DNA of 64,000 nucleotides, from the IMG/VR virus record IMGVR_UViG_3300037361_000044, positions 32,001 to 96,000 of that record, one strand, 5' to 3'. This document shows positions 1,569 to 10,926 of the stretch, piece after piece. The position numbers and the translations under genes were made by a program. Under the pieces are notes generated by a model. The model was not told the origin of the DNA and did not search any database. It worked only from the letters and a program-made list of their open reading frames with translations. This DNA is from a virus. Lineage: Duplodnaviria; Caudoviricetes. Each line of letters opens with the position of its first letter. Position 1 is the stretch's first letter.

Positions 1569-2012
1569 ATGGGGGATCCTTCTTCATTGTTCGGTGGTGA
1601 GAGGCCTGGTCAAGCTTCGGCAGACGACCTAATGGCCCTTCGTCGAGACCTTGGTTTTGACGAAGGCACAGGGGCCCCAATCTTTCCGGCAGGAGAGGTA
1701 GTGTTCGAACCTTTGTCCGTAACGTCAACTTTGATGGGTAATTCAGAGGCTGACGACGAGACGAACGAAGGAGGATCCCCCACCCAACCTCAGATGCACG
1801 TGGAGTACGTGGGCCATGGTGGCAGGAAGATCTTGAAGAAGGTCAACTTCGTGTCGGGCGCATCCGTGCATTACTACTTGAAGCAGACGCACACCACATC
1901 CATCCGCACGCACAATGCGCTGATGGTTGGCGGCAAGAAGGTGCGCATGAATTACGTCCCCAAAGTGGGGGAGCACATCACCCTGCAGCCAGTACGGAGC
2001 GCGCTGTCATGA
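1569..2012 (+). CDS. protein with C-terminal ubiquitin-like (beta-grasp) domain
   Basis: ATG at 1569; GASVHYYLK...LMVGGKKVRMNYVPKVGEHITLQP resembles Ub-Mut7C/ThiS-MoaD; no terminal GG. Confidence 0.5.
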   Translation: MGDPSSLFGGERPGQASADDLMALRRDLGFDEGTGAPIFPAGEVVFEPLSVTSTLMGNSEADDETNEGGSPTQPQMHVEYVGHGGRKILKKVNFVSGASVHYYLKQTHTTSIRTHNALMVGGKKVRMNYVPKVGEHITLQPVRSALS

Positions 2013-2902
2013 ACCTGGAAACCGTCCGCGTACAAGTACTCGACGACACCACGGCGCAGGCCGGCATACCTGGTGTAATCGTACGGTTCTTTGACGCCAC
2101 GAACACCAACATCATTACGCAGGCCACTACGGATGCCGCGGGGGGCGTGGACGTGACGCTGGTTGCACCTGGCGACTACTACGTGCGCTTCTACAAGGAC
2201 AAGGTCGTAATCAAACAGCCGCAATTGCTGCAGGTGCTGCAAGCCCCTCCCGATGGCAACTACTTCCTAGCCAGCGGCCACGTCTATGCACCACCTGAGG
2301 CGCTGAACGCGCGCATGTGCTGCTGCTCTGGCTTCTTTCGAAGGCCTGACAACGCACCAGCGGTGAATCACGACATTCACTTCATCCCCAAGTTCGACCC
2401 GTTGCTGCTTGAGGGCAATGCCATGCTCACGGAGCGCGTGTGCGCTCGTACTGACTCCAGGGGTTACGTACAGGTGGAGCTGGTGCGTTTTGGCCAGTAC
2501 GAGGTGACCGTGGAGGGGCTCGAGGACCAGCAGCGCGTCATTACAATTCCTGACGCACCCAGCGTGAACCTGCCTGACCTTCTCTTCTCTGTGGTGGACC
2601 GCATCGAGTTCGATCCGCCTGGACCCTGGAACATAGGAATTGGGGTTCTGAACGACTTTGTCATCACCCCAACCGTCTACACCTCGGATGGACGCGTACT
2701 GCCTGGCACCGCCATGCAGGACGTGCAGTGGGCGGTCTCTGACCCCTCCGTCGCCGCGGTTCTGCCTGCGGACAAGACCATCGTGCTTCGGGGCATGGCT
2801 CCTGGTTCAACCACCTTGGTGCCCACCCGCTGGGACAACTCGATAGTGAGGATCCCGAATCCACCCATCCAGGACACACCCGTAGCCATCAACGTAAGCT
2901 GA
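2009..2902 (+). CDS. putative virion structural protein with carboxypeptidase-regulatory-like and Ig-like (Big_2) domains
   Basis: TTDAAGGVDVTLVAPGDYYV; C-terminal VQWAVSDPSVAAV...GMAPGSTTL Ig-like motif. Confidence 0.65.
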   Translation: MNLETVRVQVLDDTTAQAGIPGVIVRFFDATNTNIITQATTDAAGGVDVTLVAPGDYYVRFYKDKVVIKQPQLLQVLQAPPDGNYFLASGHVYAPPEALNARMCCCSGFFRRPDNAPAVNHDIHFIPKFDPLLLEGNAMLTERVCARTDSRGYVQVELVRFGQYEVTVEGLEDQQRVITIPDAPSVNLPDLLFSVVDRIEFDPPGPWNIGIGVLNDFVITPTVYTSDGRVLPGTAMQDVQWAVSDPSVAAVLPADKTIVLRGMAPGSTTLVPTRWDNSIVRIPNPPIQDTPVAINVS

Positions 2903-3663
2903 TGCCACACGTGGAGCTCCAGCAAGCCCTGTTGGCGGTGTCCACTGGCTCCGTTGCCTTGCGCCACGCCGCGCGAGCACAGGCGTTTACGTCCCAGCTG
3001 GCTGTACCGGACGGCTTTGCCCTTCACGCGGTGCTGGCACCTCTCCAGCAGCTCCAGCAGCTTCTCGGCGGTCCTCAGCAGCCCAGTAGGCCTCGAAGGG
3101 CCCCCATGCCGAGGGCGAAGCGCGCGCCAAGGGCTGTGGCGCGACCTGGTCTACCTAGGCCTGTGGACCTGGGCGGCTTGGACAAGCGCTTGTCCAAGCT
3201 GCTGGACAACCGGATGTCTCGGGGTCGTCCCGATCCCCAGCTGGAGGCCTCCAACTGCCGGGCATTGCTCTTGGAGGTCATACGGCGGGCGGCATACGAC
3301 TGGGTGCTCTACCGCGGCAGCTCGAAGCTACCCAACAGACTCCTGGCGGAATCGGCGTACCAATGGCTCTTCGTTGAGGAGCCTGGTTCGGTGTCTTGGT
3401 GCAACCGCGGCAAGCATGGGAAGGAGCTGACGGCGTTCGCGGCCATCTGCAGTCAGCTGGACATGGATCCTGACAGCGTGCGGTCTACGGTGAGGGCCCT
3501 GACCGAGAGGGACATCATGGGGGCTGGGCGTCCAGCAGAGCGGCGCAGAGGCAAGGCTGGGGATGAGGTGGCTCACGGGGAAGACCTGCGTGTCTTTGAC
3601 GTGGATGTGGACTCGCTGCCGGTCTTCGACTGCATGTTCGCCCCAGAGCCGTTGGGGGGCTAA
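2902..3663 (+). CDS. conserved phage hypothetical protein
   Basis: 253 aa; LLEVIRRAAYDW...AYQWLF...FAAICSQLDMDPDSVR pattern. Confidence 0.65.
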   Translation: MPHVELQQALLAVSTGSVALRHAARAQAFTSQLAVPDGFALHAVLAPLQQLQQLLGGPQQPSRPRRAPMPRAKRAPRAVARPGLPRPVDLGGLDKRLSKLLDNRMSRGRPDPQLEASNCRALLLEVIRRAAYDWVLYRGSSKLPNRLLAESAYQWLFVEEPGSVSWCNRGKHGKELTAFAAICSQLDMDPDSVRSTVRALTERDIMGAGRPAERRRGKAGDEVAHGEDLRVFDVDVDSLPVFDCMFAPEPLGG

Positions 3664-3690
3664 GCGAAAGCAGCTTGTGGCTGCTTTCTA
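3655..3690. terminator. bidirectional intrinsic terminator
   Basis: GAAAGCAGC-ttgtg-GCTGCTTTC between convergent genes; minus-strand tail TTTCGCTTAGCCCC. Confidence 0.75.
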
Positions 3691-3707
3691 CTTGCTGCGC
3701 GACCCTG

Positions 3708-4784
3708 TTACTGGTTCAGGAAGTCGGCAGCCACGTCCAACGTCATCTTCTCATCTGCAGAAACCAGCGTCAGCTTCCCTGGTACGAAGTCAGCCTCAGT
3801 ACCACAGCGAGCCAAGCCCATCTTCAGGGCCCCGTCCACCAAGCGGAAGTAGCCCTTGCTGCGCCAGTATGGCATGTGTGTCTTGGTCTGCTTAGTGGAC
3901 ATCGTTCGGTAGTACACGCGTGTCGACGCCTTGGGTGCGCCGGGTGCTGGGGTGGCGAAGCTGATGTCCAAGTGGGCTCCATCTATGGCCCAGTCCGGCG
4001 TAGAGCCAGACATGCCGGCGAGGTGCCTCGCCAGCTTGCTCGACAGGTACATGGCTGCCTGATGTTCTTTCTGCGCCTGCGTCCATTGGGGGAACAACTT
4101 GGAATAGCGCTCATCCAAGAAGTCCTTCCAGTCCTGCCCCACGCCGCTCTTCCATCCGGCTGCTTGCACGCCTATCTGGTCGCCCGTGATGAGCGCATGC
4201 TCGAATACGGGGACGTTGTGGTATGCCAGTTCAAGCATCTTTCCGGATTGTTCTACGGCGCTGGACTCACGCCAGGCGGTGAGAAACTTCCCACCCACTC
4301 GCTCCTCCAGCAGGGCGCAGAGTTTGATGAAGTCCTTGCAGTACTGCTCCATCTCGTACGCGCTGTCGATGGGCTCCAAGAAGGTGCCCGTGACATCCTC
4401 GAGGCGGATACGGAAGCTCATGCCTGGCTCGTAGTACTTGCTCACACGCTCCTGTAGGCACACCAGCTTCTGCACTGCAGAGAATTCAGCCAAGTCTACT
4501 TGACCGCTGTTGCTCTTCTTTGGCCCGGCTGCAGACAGCACAGGAATGGGCACTCCACGTGACATGGCAGTTCGAATGACGCCACGAATAAGAACTTGGC
4601 TCTCAGGTGCAGGGCAACCCGCCAAGCGTATGTTGCGTGTACCCATGAACAACTCTGAAATCTTGTCCACTAGGTTCTCATCGTGCTGGAAGCTGGCGCC
4701 AGGCAGCTCGTTGACGAGAAACCGGTCCACCATGTCGTTGACGAATCGAAGCTCGGCACTCGTGCAGTTGTATGTAGCTTGCAT
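3708..4784 (-). CDS. PvcA/DIT1 (isocyanide synthase)-like protein
   Basis: GVPIPVLSAAGPKKS..VDLAEFSAVQKLVCLQERVSKYYEPGMSFRIRLED parallels PvcA GEPIEFVLPAFPAKS..PDMAE..L..L..RI..FYAPGAKITVCSD; GAGGA RBS. Confidence 0.6.
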   Translation of the reverse strand: MQATYNCTSAELRFVNDMVDRFLVNELPGASFQHDENLVDKISELFMGTRNIRLAGCPAPESQVLIRGVIRTAMSRGVPIPVLSAAGPKKSNSGQVDLAEFSAVQKLVCLQERVSKYYEPGMSFRIRLEDVTGTFLEPIDSAYEMEQYCKDFIKLCALLEERVGGKFLTAWRESSAVEQSGKMLELAYHNVPVFEHALITGDQIGVQAAGWKSGVGQDWKDFLDERYSKLFPQWTQAQKEHQAAMYLSSKLARHLAGMSGSTPDWAIDGAHLDISFATPAPGAPKASTRVYYRTMSTKQTKTHMPYWRSKGYFRLVDGALKMGLARCGTEADFVPGKLTLVSADEKMTLDVAADFLNQ

Positions 4785-4795
4785 GTGTTTCCTCC

Positions 4796-5041
4796 TCAGT
4801 TGACGGTGTAGGGGTCGGGCATTACATTCAAAACGCGCGATACGTCTTCGAAGCCGGTGTCGATTTCCACAGCCAGGTAGTGGCGGACACGGCTGACAGG
4901 CACCTCGGGGGTGAGGTGCACAACCACCCCGTGCTCCAGGTAGGTGTCCTGATCCACGACGCGGGCCATGGTGTCGGGTGCCACTTCAATTACCAGCTGT
5001 GGGTCTTTCGGGTCTTGAAGTCGAATCATTGGGTTTCTCAT
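4796..5041 (-). CDS. hypothetical protein
   Basis: 81 aa from ATG 5041, directly downstream of a GGGATAAG promoter. Confidence 0.65.
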   Translation of the reverse strand: MRNPMIRLQDPKDPQLVIEVAPDTMARVVDQDTYLEHGVVVHLTPEVPVSRVRHYLAVEIDTGFEDVSRVLNVMPDPYTVN

Positions 5042-5063
5042 GGGTCGGGTTCCCTCTATTCCT

Positions 5064-5092
5064 CTTATCCCCGATCTGATGGCGTTCTTGCC
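5064..5092 (-). promoter_or_regulatory. class A promoter GGCAAG-N15-GGGATAAG
   Basis: Recurrent motif upstream of 4796..5041. Confidence 0.7.
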
Positions 5093-5114
5093 TCTGGTAG
5101 ACTTGTAGTGGCAC

Positions 5115-5143
5115 CTGAAGACCCGCGCGTTTTGTGGCATAAG
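5115..5143 (+). promoter_or_regulatory. class A promoter CTGAAG-N15-GGCATAAG (leaderless)
   Basis: ATG at 5150 lies 6 nt after the motif. Confidence 0.65.
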
Positions 5144-5149
5144 GCTTGT

Positions 5150-5449
5150 ATGGGCAGAATCATCGACCCCCGACCACCGCAATGGGAGCGCAAGCAACCC
5201 GTCGATGACGTGCGGGAAGACCGCGTCCTATGCCTTGCGGAATCGCTGTTGCGGGTACTCACGGGGGAGACCGATCCCACTGCTGTACAGCTTGCGGCAC
5301 TGCGGCTGGTGCAGAAGGCGGTCATCGGCAACTACTCGAGCGCGATGGGGCTGGACAACGCCAAGGCTGTGCTTGCACAGGCCACTGAGCTTGCCAGCTG
5401 CTACGCGATCAACATCGCGGACTACGGAGACAAGGAACATGGAAAATAG
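5150..5449 (+). CDS. hypothetical protein
   Basis: 99 aa, first gene of a long + strand accessory cluster. Confidence 0.65.
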   Translation: MGRIIDPRPPQWERKQPVDDVREDRVLCLAESLLRVLTGETDPTAVQLAALRLVQKAVIGNYSSAMGLDNAKAVLAQATELASCYAINIADYGDKEHGK

Positions 5450-9254: not shown

Positions 9255-9913
9255 ACAGAGAAGAAGCCATAGTTTGGATGCTTCGGCATCCTAAAGAGAT
9301 TCTGCGCGGGGAATACAGGCGTGTCGACGGTAAGCGCCGCCTGGACTACTGGATGTTCTTCAATGGTCACATCGTGACAAGCCATACAGACGCCGGGGTC
9401 TACAAGGCAAGCGATGCCTGGCTTCGCCGAGAGCTTGTCAGCTTTTCCGTGCACCACGTGACGTTGACCGAGTGGGCTGGGGCTGCATGCACGGTCACAG
9501 ACTGCATAGGACCGTTCCTTCGTCTACCAAGGGACTTCATTGGTAGACGGGTACGCGTGGCTGCCACCCCAGTGACCGTCATGTCTGGCAAAGACGCCAT
9601 GATTTGGATGCTCAAGCATACTGGCTGGATGGTGCGCTCAATGAGTCAAGCACATGGCAAGTCCAACTACGATGAGTACTTCTTCAGCAACAAGCATCAA
9701 GGCTTTAGAGGGAGGAACGGGGGCAGGGCCCGCAGCTACGCAGTGGACGCCGCCTCTCTGATGACCCAGGGCTTCACCGTCAGTGACACTTGGAAGGATG
9801 TGCTTACTACAACGTCGGACGCGTCCGGGCCGTACGTGCGGCTACCTGCGTACTACGAAGAGCAGGAGATGAGGGTACACGTGACCCTCGTGCAGGGACA
9901 AGAGGCAGCATGA
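9245..9913 (+). CDS. hypothetical protein with two-fold internal repeat
   Basis: AIVWMLRH..GPFLRLP versus AMIWMLKH..GPYVRLP. Confidence 0.65.
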   Translation: MSMNREEAIVWMLRHPKEILRGEYRRVDGKRRLDYWMFFNGHIVTSHTDAGVYKASDAWLRRELVSFSVHHVTLTEWAGAACTVTDCIGPFLRLPRDFIGRRVRVAATPVTVMSGKDAMIWMLKHTGWMVRSMSQAHGKSNYDEYFFSNKHQGFRGRNGGRARSYAVDAASLMTQGFTVSDTWKDVLTTTSDASGPYVRLPAYYEEQEMRVHVTLVQGQEAA

Positions 9914-10926
9914 TAACCAGCATAAAAGTCGGGATGCACGTACGTGTGGTGATACGGGGCACGTACCGTGAGCAGGATTGGCACCACGCTGCGGTGGACG
10001 CGCTGCACGGCGTCACAGGTACTGTTTCGGTGATAGAGCCGGACAAGCTCATGTGTCTGGTGTCCTTCGACGCGCCCGTGGAGAAGTGGGCCATGCGCAG
10101 TTCTGATCCAGACCCCGAGGCAAACCAGCTCACCTGCTTCCATTTTCACTTTGGAGAGCTCGAAGAGCTTCTCGAGAAGCGCGGGGCAATTACGTGCCGT
10201 ACGGATGCAAGCAAGCCCAACAACAGCAATGCCGGTGAACTGCATGCCGTGGAGTTCTCGGACAGGTTACCGGGTAGCGTGGACCTGCTGTACCGGGAGG
10301 TGGCTGCTGGACCTCCTGCGGGGTTCTGCGTGGAAAAAGCACCACACGCAACGTGTCCTGCGTGCGAAATGGAGGCGGAGCTCGGCACAGAAGATGTCCC
10401 ACATCCGATAGACCCGCGGGTTCACAGCTGCGCATTGGACAAGCAGGGCACTACTAGGTACGTAGCTGGCTTCTTCTTCGACCCCACCTTCAGGTACGTG
10501 GCCTTGGTGCTGAAGAAGCGGCCTGACTGGCAGGCTGGCAAATGGAACGCTGTTGGCGGACATGTGGAGGATGGTGAACCGGCAGGCGCAGCCATGGCCA
10601 GGGAGTTCCATGAGGAGGCAGGCATCCTTCACTATCGTTGGCGGCACTTTGCCACCGTAGTGGCAGCTGGTGCTGAATCTCAGCTGGATGCCTACTTTGC
10701 TGTTGGCGCAGAAGATGAGTACATCCGCGTCAAGACCGACGAGCAAGTGGATTGGGTGTCAATAGAAGGTGTACGCGATGGTGAATGGCCCGTGGTTACC
10801 AACACGAGATGGCTGCTGGAGCTGGCTCTATCGATCTGTCGGGGCGTAGACCCCTGCCAGTCCTACCTTATTCAAGAGGAGACAAAAAGAGATGTCGAAA
10901 GCACACCTGTCACGCAGCCACAATGA
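9910..10926 (+). CDS. NUDIX hydrolase domain protein (C-terminal)
   Basis: Nudix box GGHVEDGEPAGAAMAREFHEEAG; upstream KRPDWQAGKWN. Confidence 0.85.
   Translation: MITSIKVGMHVRVVIRGTYREQDWHHAAVDALHGVTGTVSVIEPDKLMCLVSFDAPVEKWAMRSSDPDPEANQLTCFHFHFGELEELLEKRGAITCRTDASKPNNSNAGELHAVEFSDRLPGSVDLLYREVAAGPPAGFCVEKAPHATCPACEMEAELGTEDVPHPIDPRVHSCALDKQGTTRYVAGFFFDPTFRYVALVLKKRPDWQAGKWNAVGGHVEDGEPAGAAMAREFHEEAGILHYRWRHFATVVAAGAESQLDAYFAVGAEDEYIRVKTDEQVDWVSIEGVRDGEWPVVTNTRWLLELALSICRGVDPCQSYLIQEETKRDVESTPVTQPQ

What the first reader, a model, noticed from the sequence alone, without database searches (positions are those of the whole stretch)
3708..5092. Phage-encoded PvcA/DIT1 isocyanide-synthase-like enzyme in a self-contained cassette
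Seen: a 358-aa ORF whose segments IRTAMSRGVPIPVLSAAGPKKS / VDLAEFSAVQKL..LQERVSKYYEPG / RIRLED / MEQYCKD / LDISF / HMPYW follow the order and spacing of PvcA (GEPIEFVLPAFPAKS / PDMAE...YAPG / VCSD / AYQD / IRLSIH / TPWH). It has its own class A promoter, an 81-aa partner gene and a terminator. Knowledge: PvcA/IsnA/DIT1 enzymes convert an amino acid into an isonitrile or N-formyl product in secondary metabolism. Inference: the diverged motifs (AGPKK, ED, PYW) and the absence of a PvcB-type oxygenase suggest new chemistry, such as a metal-chelating small molecule, a signal or anti-defence molecule, or a modification enzyme. I do not know of a characterised phage member.
Basis: partly seen in the sequence, partly recalled or inferred. 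Interest (0 to 1): 0.8.

Follow-up and report, generated by a model that had tools for sequence, protein, structure and literature searches.

The report
Phage relative of isonitrile synthases
A complete 190-kb uncultured phage carries an intact enzyme gene with the three-dimensional shape of bacterial isonitrile synthases (PvcA/IsnA), but it belongs to a large, unnamed, phage-borne sister family in which several residues invariant in the sampled bacterial enzymes are replaced and the usual partner enzyme is missing, so phages probably use it for related but still unknown chemistry.

Summary
A 358-aa ORF (3708-4784, minus strand) follows an 81-aa ORF behind a phage-specific GGGATAAG motif and precedes a hairpin. 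The homology call is right. The AF2 model (pLDDT 94.9) matches PvcA at Z 20.7 and PIsnA at Z 20.1, against 10.8 for the next fold. hhalign against canonical PvcA gives 96% probability (E 4e-9). The family profile, run over 400 bacterial genomes, hits only its own member and true PvcA genes.

It is not a regular member of the family. The query scores 14.4 bits against Pfam's cut-off of 26.4. It belongs to a sister family of at least 426 clusters (50% identity), sampled only on phage-like contigs. No relative was found in 50,697 deposited phages or in PHROGs.

The N-terminal half of the canonical site is kept (K90, D97, E100, Y118-x-PG, Y148). Canonical R261, H265, Q267 and H289 are replaced. 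The phage has no PvcB/TauD, CDO or cupin gene. The 81-aa partner is lineage-specific, so probably not obligatory.

Best reading: an active stand-alone enzyme that condenses an amine with a phosphorylated carbonyl compound; the product is unknown. This scan has described the same sister family before on other DNA (e1-5348894, e1-4790366, e1-2327325).

The parts
3708..4784 (-). 358-aa PvcA/IsnA-fold enzyme of a phage-borne sister family
   Evidence: ORF. AF2 pLDDT 94.9. VIA Z 20.7 to PvcA 3e59 and 20.1 to PIsnA 9dhm. hhalign prob 96%, E 3.9e-9. 426 family clusters.
4790..4795 (-). GGAGGA ribosome-binding site, 5 nt before the enzyme's ATG and directly after the partner's TGA
   Evidence: Read directly from the sequence.
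4796..5041 (-). 81-aa upstream ORF ('partner'), no known family
   Evidence: ORF with its own RBS. Homologs at the same position in L001, L020 and L021 (31-43% identity); none found in L004, L019 or L022. No Pfam, PHROG, NCBIfam, PADLOC or Atlas hit.
5064..5071 (-). GGGATAAG, a copy of the phage-specific promoter-like motif GGNATAAG, 22 nt upstream of the partner's ATG
   Evidence: 16 copies in the window against 3.3 expected; 0 of 100 shuffles reach 16.
3662..3693 (.). Hairpin between the convergent genes 2902..3663 (+) and 3708..4784 (-); terminator-like, no U-tract
   Evidence: MFE -16 kcal/mol on the minus strand and -15.8 on the plus strand, z -1.7 and -1.2. Not called by the terminator scan.

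Best explanation
The 358-aa protein is a catalytically active, stand-alone enzyme. It shares common ancestry and the whole two-domain fold with the IsnA/PvcA/Dit1 isonitrile synthases, but it belongs to a separate sister family found almost only on phage contigs. It is transcribed with an 81-aa ORF from a phage-specific GGNATAAG-type promoter, in a small minus-strand island among plus-strand genes. Shown: the fold, the homology, the retained N-terminal half of the canonical site (K90 at the PAFPxKS lysine, D97/E100 of DxAE, Y118-x-P-G, Y148), and a family-specific invariant set (R53, R127, E129, D130, E173, R293, H303, W307, R308). Inferred: like IsnA, it binds a phosphorylated carbonyl co-substrate (ribulose-5-phosphate or a similar ketose phosphate) at the retained site and condenses it with a primary amine. 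Canonical R261, H265, Q267 and H289 are replaced by E/Q/D, A/V, P and R, so I expect the amine substrate and/or the later bond-breaking steps to differ. The product may therefore be an isonitrile, an N-formyl compound or something else. With no tailoring oxygenase, the product would be released as made and would act inside the infected cell.
For: Fold: Foldseek places PIsnA and PvcA as the top 8 hits, E 3.5e-10 to 1.7e-8. VIA gives Z 18.6 in the unbiased scan and 20.7, 20.1 and 19.9 in the second look, against 10.8 or less for TyrRS. ESM Atlas Dit1 and IsnA-TauD clusters match at TM 0.69 and 0.67. Sequence: 44 of 77 family members hit PF05141, best E 1.1e-7, and no other family matches more than one member. 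The family profile hits PIsnA at 9.3e-6 and PvcA at 2.1e-5 in the PDB. hhalign gives 96%, E 3.9e-9. Over 400 bacterial genomes in six frames, the family profile hits only its own member and the canonical PvcA genes. Active site: invariant K90, D97, E100, P120, G121, Y148 and W307 align with canonical invariants. Seven of the family's charged invariants (K90, D97, E100, R127, E129, D130, E173) lie at or just after the C-terminal ends of strands 80-86, 122-128 and 168-172 of the model. Real, selected gene: 426 clusters at 50% identity, all about 360 aa. Stand-alone: no neighbour recurs across 14 sampled loci. No TauD, CDO or cupin in the phage. No fused forms found. Precedent for other products in the superfamily: Dit1 yields N-formyl-tyrosine with an unknown donor (PMC7345447). 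Promoter motif enrichment.
Against: No biochemical data exist for any member of this sister family. The canonical invariants R261, H265, Q267 and H289 are not kept at columns aligned with confidence 7, so IsnA-like chemistry may not be possible. I could not obtain the PIsnA structure paper, so which canonical residues are catalytic is unknown to me. The roles I assign to K90, D97 and E100 (phosphate and amine binding) are inference from their position in the fold. Parts of the C-terminal alignment have low confidence (0-5). The canonical comparison set (24 sequences, 40% identity or more) is narrow and overstates canonical invariance.
Confidence: 0.6

Rival explanations
1. It is a bona fide isonitrile synthase. 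It converts an L-amino acid (Tyr, Trp, Val or another) plus ribulose-5-phosphate into an alpha-isocyano acid, exactly as IsnA/PvcA do, and the residue changes only retune substrate choice.
For: Same fold at Z about 20. Retained K, DxAE, YxPG, Tyr and Trp invariants. A conserved His (H303, 70 of 77) sits in the same loop as canonical H289, and R293 aligns with canonical R277. The superfamily already accepts different amino acids, for example the valine-derived isocyanide of CrmA (PMC9381783 abstract).
Against: Canonical invariant R261, H265, Q267 and H289 are replaced, and R261 by acidic or amide residues. The query is below the Pfam cut-off, and only 3 of 77 members reach about the threshold. 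The NCBIfam equivalog NF045653 is not matched. No IsnB/PvcB-type partner is present, whereas all 3 canonical genes sampled have one adjacent.
Confidence: 0.2
2. It is a neofunctionalised enzyme that keeps only the phosphate-binding scaffold. It acts on a different class of substrate, such as a nucleotide, a nucleotide-derived immune signal, a tRNA or another phosphorylated host metabolite, as a host-takeover or counter-defence function.
For: Members sit among arrays of small, unannotated, same-strand phage genes typical of early or takeover regions. The family is restricted to phage contigs. It has many invariant Arg/Lys and Asp/Glu residues not shared with canonical enzymes. The gene moves between phage lineages independently of synteny.
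Against: There is no similarity to any known defence or anti-defence protein (PADLOC). Nucleotide-binding HUP folds score only Z 5-10 against about 20 for PvcA. The best-conserved shared residues are exactly the canonical IsnA motif residues.
Confidence: 0.15
3. It is a non-catalytic ligand-binding protein (a sponge or regulator) that retains the fold but not the activity.
For: Several canonical invariant residues are lost.
Against: Eight residues are invariant and about 19 nearly invariant across 77 sequences that are 25-70% identical to the query, mostly charged or aromatic and placed at strand ends. That pattern is typical of an active site.
Confidence: 0.04
4. It is a class-I aminoacyl-tRNA-synthetase-like or cyclodipeptide-synthase-like enzyme that uses ATP or aminoacyl-tRNA.
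For: TyrRS, TrpRS and CDPS structures are the next-best structural matches, at Z 7-10.8.
Against: PvcA and PIsnA score about twice as high and cover the whole protein. There is no Pfam tRNA-synt_1b or CDPS hit at E up to 1. No HIGH or KMSKS motif is present; the HIGH position reads G-P-K-K (read from the sequence).
Confidence: 0.01

Closest known systems
IsnA-type isonitrile synthases: PvcA (P. aeruginosa, PDB 3E59) and PIsnA (PDB 9DH4, 9DHM, 9DHN); Pfam PF05141 DIT1_PvcA
   Same: The whole two-domain fold (Z 19.9-20.7, about 274 residues aligned at 3.3-4.0 A, model residues 30-357). Similar size (about 330-360 aa). Retained invariants: K of PAFPxKS, D and E of DMAE, YxPG, Tyr136, Trp288, and probably Arg227 and Arg277.
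   Different: 12-17% identity. Below the Pfam and NCBIfam thresholds. Canonical R261, S74, H265, Q267, W284 and H289 are replaced. It has its own invariants R53, R127, E129, D130, E173, R293, H303 and R308. No adjacent or genome-wide Fe/2OG oxygenase. Phage-borne rather than part of a bacterial or fungal secondary-metabolite cluster.
Yeast Dit1 (spore-wall N-formyl-tyrosine / tyrosine isonitrile)
   Same: It is a member of the same superfamily whose product is not simply the canonical vinyl-isonitrile precursor and whose donor substrate was unresolved (PMC7345447). The ESM Atlas Dit1-named cluster is the top structural match at TM 0.69.
   Different: Dit1 is a regular PF05141 member and works with the P450 Dit2. 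The phage protein is outside the curated family and has no partner.
Class I aaRS (TyrRS/TrpRS) and cyclodipeptide synthases (HUP/Rossmann-like superfold)
   Same: Shared core architecture, Z 7-10.8.
   Different: No HIGH or KMSKS motif and no Pfam hit. The structural score is half that of PvcA.
Phage and CPR isonitrile-synthase cassettes with a CDO-like cupin partner
   Same: A PvcA-fold gene carried by uncultured phages.
   Different: This phage has no CDO_I or Cupin_2 match anywhere, and no conserved three-gene cassette.

Membership tests
Pfam PF05141 DIT1_PvcA | Whole-protein score at or above the curated gathering cut-off (26.4 bits) | tested here: not met
   The query scores 14.4 bits, E 0.026, over residues 84-126 only. 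44 of 77 relatives hit weakly, but only 3 of 77 reach about the cut-off.
NCBIfam NF045653 L-tyrosine isonitrile synthase (equivalog) | Score at or above the equivalog cut-off (600 bits) | tested here: not met
   No hit for the query. The best relative, P0034, scores 15.8 bits.
IsnA/PvcA isonitrile synthases | PvcA two-domain fold | tested here: met
   VIA Z 20.7 (3e59_B, 274 aa, rmsd 3.3) and 20.1/19.9 (9dhm/9dh4); next fold 10.8. The unbiased scan of 48,161 chains gives PvcA Z 18.6 at rank 1.
IsnA/PvcA isonitrile synthases | N-terminal signature PAFPxKS ... DMAE ... YxPG | tested here: met
   K90=K73, D97=D86, E100=E89 and P120-G121=P109-G110 are invariant in both families. Y118 (61 of 77) aligns with Y107. 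hhalign confidence is 8-9. S74 is not kept (P/T/A).
IsnA/PvcA isonitrile synthases | C-terminal signatures RLSIHPQ and W-x-TPWH (invariant in 24 canonical sequences) | tested here: not met
   R261 becomes E/Q/D, H265 becomes A/V, Q267 becomes P, W284 becomes H303 and H289 becomes R308, at columns of confidence 7. Only W288=W307 is kept. Caveat: this is a profile alignment, not a structural superposition.
IsnA/PvcA isonitrile synthases | Pathway context: adjacent Fe(II)/2-oxoglutarate oxygenase (IsnB/PvcB, TauD family) | tested here: not met
   All 3 canonical genes sampled have TauD directly downstream. The phage has no TauD match at E up to 1 in 190 kb, and none is listed next to the relatives whose called genes carry Pfam labels.
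IsnA/PvcA isonitrile synthases | Catalysis: amino acid + ribulose-5-phosphate gives an isonitrile | not testable with these tools
   Needs an enzyme assay.
Class I aaRS / cyclodipeptide synthases | HIGH and KMSKS motifs (aaRS), or a Pfam tRNA-synt_1b or CDPS match | tested here: not met
   No such Pfam hit at E up to 1. No HxGH or KMSKS in the sequence. Structural Z is only 7-10.8.

The most novel reading that the evidence does not exclude
Large uncultured phages make their own reactive small molecule during infection. This stand-alone enzyme would convert an abundant host amine and a pentose-phosphate-pathway sugar phosphate into an isonitrile or a related metal-binding or electrophilic compound. 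That compound would disable host metalloenzymes or a defence pathway. This would be a new class of phage-encoded chemical warfare, represented by hundreds of gene clusters and by no cultured phage.
Probability: 0.2. Interest if true: 0.85.

Novelty: new variant of a known kind. Interest (0 to 1): 0.6.

Why it matters
Isonitrile synthases are a rare enzyme class, known from bacterial and fungal secondary metabolism (virulence, copper and zinc chemistry, spore walls). I found no report of a phage member. Here a complete 190-kb phage, and at least 426 sequence clusters sampled only from phage-like contigs, carry a sister family. It keeps the fold and half of the conserved site, replaces the other half, and has no tailoring partner. 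If active, it would show that phages synthesise or transform a small molecule by unusual C-N chemistry during infection. The family is compact (about 360 aa, one gene), so it can be tested directly by expression and metabolomics. It is also a clean case for how an active site is remodelled within a conserved fold.

Tried and rejected
1. Single-sequence phmmer and the shallow 15-sequence profile against the PDB found nothing relevant. The 77-sequence profile was needed.

2. DNA (blastn) and protein (tblastn) searches of 50,697 deposited phages found no match for the window region, the query or a distant member.

3. PHROGs (all 77 members), and NCBIfam and PADLOC (the query and 4 distant members each), gave no family assignment. 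The only hit was a 15.8-bit match of one relative, P0034, to NF045653.

4. BFVD viral structures held no PvcA-like protein, only weak TyrRS and CDPS hits.

5. The search for longer, fused forms found none. The tool itself calls this weak evidence.

6. The search for related loci with the diverse alignment A2 failed because it has no conserved 7-10-mer. With A1 it returned only 2 viral and 3 MAG loci.

7. Complex prediction of enzyme plus 81-aa partner gave no verdict (score 0.00, mark 0.32). This is neither support for nor evidence against binding.

8. The downstream ~360-aa genes in L020 and L003, and the extra genes in L001, are not paralogs and are not related to each other.

9. I looked for a CDO-like cupin partner as described in earlier scan notes. 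It is absent here.

10. The PIsnA structure paper is not in the library, so I could not take experimentally defined catalytic residues from the literature.

12. Model coordinates are not exposed, so no pocket or superposition analysis was possible.

13. The sigma-70 promoter scan gave nothing relevant on the minus strand.

Full report
OBSERVATION. The window is bases 32001-96000 of a 190,298-bp IMG/VR virus record that CheckV rates 100% complete. The ORF 3708..4784 on the minus strand encodes 358 aa. Directly upstream lies an 81-aa ORF (5041..4796). Its TGA abuts a GGAGGA ribosome-binding site (4795-4790), 5 nt before the enzyme's ATG, so the two genes look co-transcribed. GGGATAAG lies at 5064-5071 (minus strand), 22 nt upstream of the small ORF. 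The motif GGNATAAG occurs 16 times in the window against 3.3 +/- 2.0 expected, and none of 100 shuffles reached 16. Downstream of the stop codon, between this gene and the convergent gene 2902..3663 (+), is a hairpin at 3662-3693. It folds at -16 kcal/mol, but its z-score is only -1.7, it has no U-tract, and the terminator scan did not call it. The description is therefore correct, except that 'terminator' should read 'terminator-like hairpin'.

IS IT A PvcA/IsnA HOMOLOG? Yes. The query alone gives only a sub-threshold Pfam hit to DIT1_PvcA (14.4 bits, cut-off 26.4, residues 84-126). The exhaustive search found 426 representative clusters at 50% identity, and all of the best 150 full-length hits are about 340-390 aa. 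Of 77 diverse members, 44 hit PF05141 independently (best E 1.1e-7), and no other family matched more than one member. A profile of the 77 hits PIsnA (9DH4, E 9.3e-6) and PvcA (3E59, E 2.1e-5) in the PDB. hhalign against 24 bona fide PvcA sequences gives 96% probability and E 3.9e-9; those sequences came from three bacterial genomes plus their database relatives. As a reciprocal test, I ran the phage-family profile in six frames over 400 bacterial genomes. It hit only its own member on a MAG contig (366 bits) and the canonical PvcA genes of two genomes (E about 1e-6).

The structural evidence agrees. The AF2 model built from the 77-sequence alignment is very confident (pLDDT 94.9, pTM 0.89). 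Foldseek's top eight PDB hits are PIsnA and PvcA chains, with E from 3.5e-10 to 1.7e-8. The Foldseek-independent VIA scan of 48,161 chains ranks PvcA first at Z 18.6, and the next hit scores 10.5. The VIA second look gives PvcA Z 20.7 (274 residues, 3.3 A) and PIsnA Z 20.1 and 19.9, against 10.8 for the best TyrRS. ESM Atlas clusters named Dit1 and IsnA-TauD fusions match at TM 0.69 and 0.67. The language-model search points to clusters in which 32-41% of members carry PF05141.

IS IT A MEMBER OF THE FAMILY? Not as curated. It fails the Pfam cut-off, and only 3 of 77 relatives reach about that level. It does not match NCBIfam's isonitrile-synthase equivalog.

I compared every aligned column between the two families. 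These invariants are shared:
- K90 = K73, the lysine of PAFPxKS.
- D97 = D86 and E100 = E89, of DMAE.
- P120-G121 = P109-G110, of YxPG.
- Y148 = Y136.
- W307 = W288.
- At lower alignment confidence: R253 = R227, R293 ~ R277 and W265 ~ W248.

At columns aligned with confidence 7, the canonical invariants are replaced:
- R261 becomes E/Q/D.
- H265 becomes A/V.
- Q267 becomes P.
- W284 becomes H303.
- H289 becomes R308.

The phage family has its own invariants: R53, P58, E61, R127, E129, D130, E173, R293, H303 and R308. In the model, K90, D97, E100, R127, E129, D130 and E173 sit at or just after the C-terminal ends of the parallel strands 80-86, 122-128 and 168-172. That is where Rossmann-like folds place their active sites; this last point is established knowledge of the fold class. 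I conclude that about half of the conserved core is retained and half is remodelled.

There are caveats. The canonical set is narrow (40% identity or more). Part of the C-terminal alignment has low confidence. I could neither superpose coordinates nor obtain the PIsnA paper. I therefore do not know which canonical residues have been shown to be catalytic.

CONTEXT. All three canonical bacterial genes are followed directly by a TauD-family (PvcB/IsnB-type) dioxygenase. The phage has no TauD, CDO_I or Cupin_2 match anywhere, and it has a single copy of the family.

I sampled 14 loci of the family, window included. In the 9 loci that come with called genes and Pfam labels, the neighbours are many small unannotated ORFs plus RecA, DNA ligase, a methylase, NUDIX, RNase HII and thymidylate synthase. 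For the 5 loci fetched by the search for related loci only ORFs were compared. No neighbour recurs beyond closely related contigs. In one species-representative genome for each of 185,579 species, the narrow pattern scan found the family on only three short MAG contigs (Burkholderiales, Neisseriaceae). This also hints at a betaproteobacterial host. No deposited phage and no PHROG contains it.

The 81-aa partner has homologs at the same position in three syntenic ~190-kb relatives (L001, L020, L021; 31-43% identity), where it sometimes overlaps the enzyme's start. It is missing next to the closer enzymes of L004 and L019 (67-70% identity) and next to L022. It therefore follows phage lineage, not the enzyme. 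The enzyme gene seems to move between phage lineages.

MECHANISM. Shown: an intact, strongly constrained gene for a PvcA-fold protein with a conserved polar site, expressed as a small phage operon. Inferred: the retained K/S-loop and DxAE helix start bind the phosphorylated carbonyl donor and the attacking amine, as in IsnA. In IsnA the alpha-amine of Tyr or Trp condenses with C2 of ribulose-5-phosphate (established knowledge; PMC7949033 abstract, PMC7345447). The replaced Arg/His/Gln/His set implies a different amine substrate and/or different later steps. Dit1 shows that the superfamily can yield N-formyl as well as isonitrile products (PMC7345447, PMC13005658). I give 0.6 to 'active IsnA-like condensing enzyme with undetermined product'. 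The remaining 0.4 goes to exclusive alternatives: 0.2 to a true isonitrile synthase that differs only in substrate choice, 0.15 to a repurposed enzyme acting on another class of phosphorylated substrate, and about 0.05 to non-catalytic or aaRS/CDPS-like readings.

NOVELTY. Targeted literature searches found no phage-encoded isonitrile or isocyanide synthase; an earlier, looser query was uninformative. This scan has reported the same sister family before on other DNA (e1-5348894, e1-4790366, e1-2327325). Those are AI notes, not independent evidence, but my independently derived result agrees with them: same fold, two histidines replaced, no partner. I class the finding as a new variant of a known kind. 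It is interesting as a testable lead, but it has no functional evidence yet.

Noticed in passing
window 4880-5449 (+): The 189-aa ORF is a chimera. Residues 92-175 are a real, divergently transcribed ~100-aa gene (~5150-5449, 56% identical to L001 9293-9595). Residues 1-65 are only the antisense shadow of the 81-aa gene. GGCATAAG at 5136-5143 (+) lies just upstream of the real gene, so the 5042-5150 spacer looks like a divergent promoter region.
   Followed up: partly
window 5099-5113 and 5142-5156: A 15-nt direct repeat (80% identical, 43 nt apart) inside the divergent promoter region. It could be an operator, or it could be chance.
   Followed up: no
window 9790-10926 (+): A 378-aa ORF with a C-terminal NUDIX domain (E 5.8e-10). 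A NUDIX gene also lies near the cassette in the relative L001.
   Followed up: no
window 2009-2902 (+): A 297-aa protein with CarboxypepD_reg and Ig-like domains, probably structural. A gene with the same domains lies near the cassette in L001 (62% identical by BLAST), L020, L021 and L022. The minus-strand enzyme operon is thus an island wedged among plus-strand genes.
   Followed up: partly
L004, L019 versus L020, L021: Enzyme similarity and synteny disagree. The 67-70% identical enzymes sit in different neighbourhoods without the partner, while the 47-49% identical ones share the window's synteny and the partner. This suggests horizontal exchange of the enzyme gene among large phages.
   Followed up: partly
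L010, L011, L012 (bacterial genomes G210, G093, G281): In each locus a divergently oriented ORF of about 280-300 aa lies upstream of the canonical PvcA-TauD pair. I did not annotate it.
   Followed up: no
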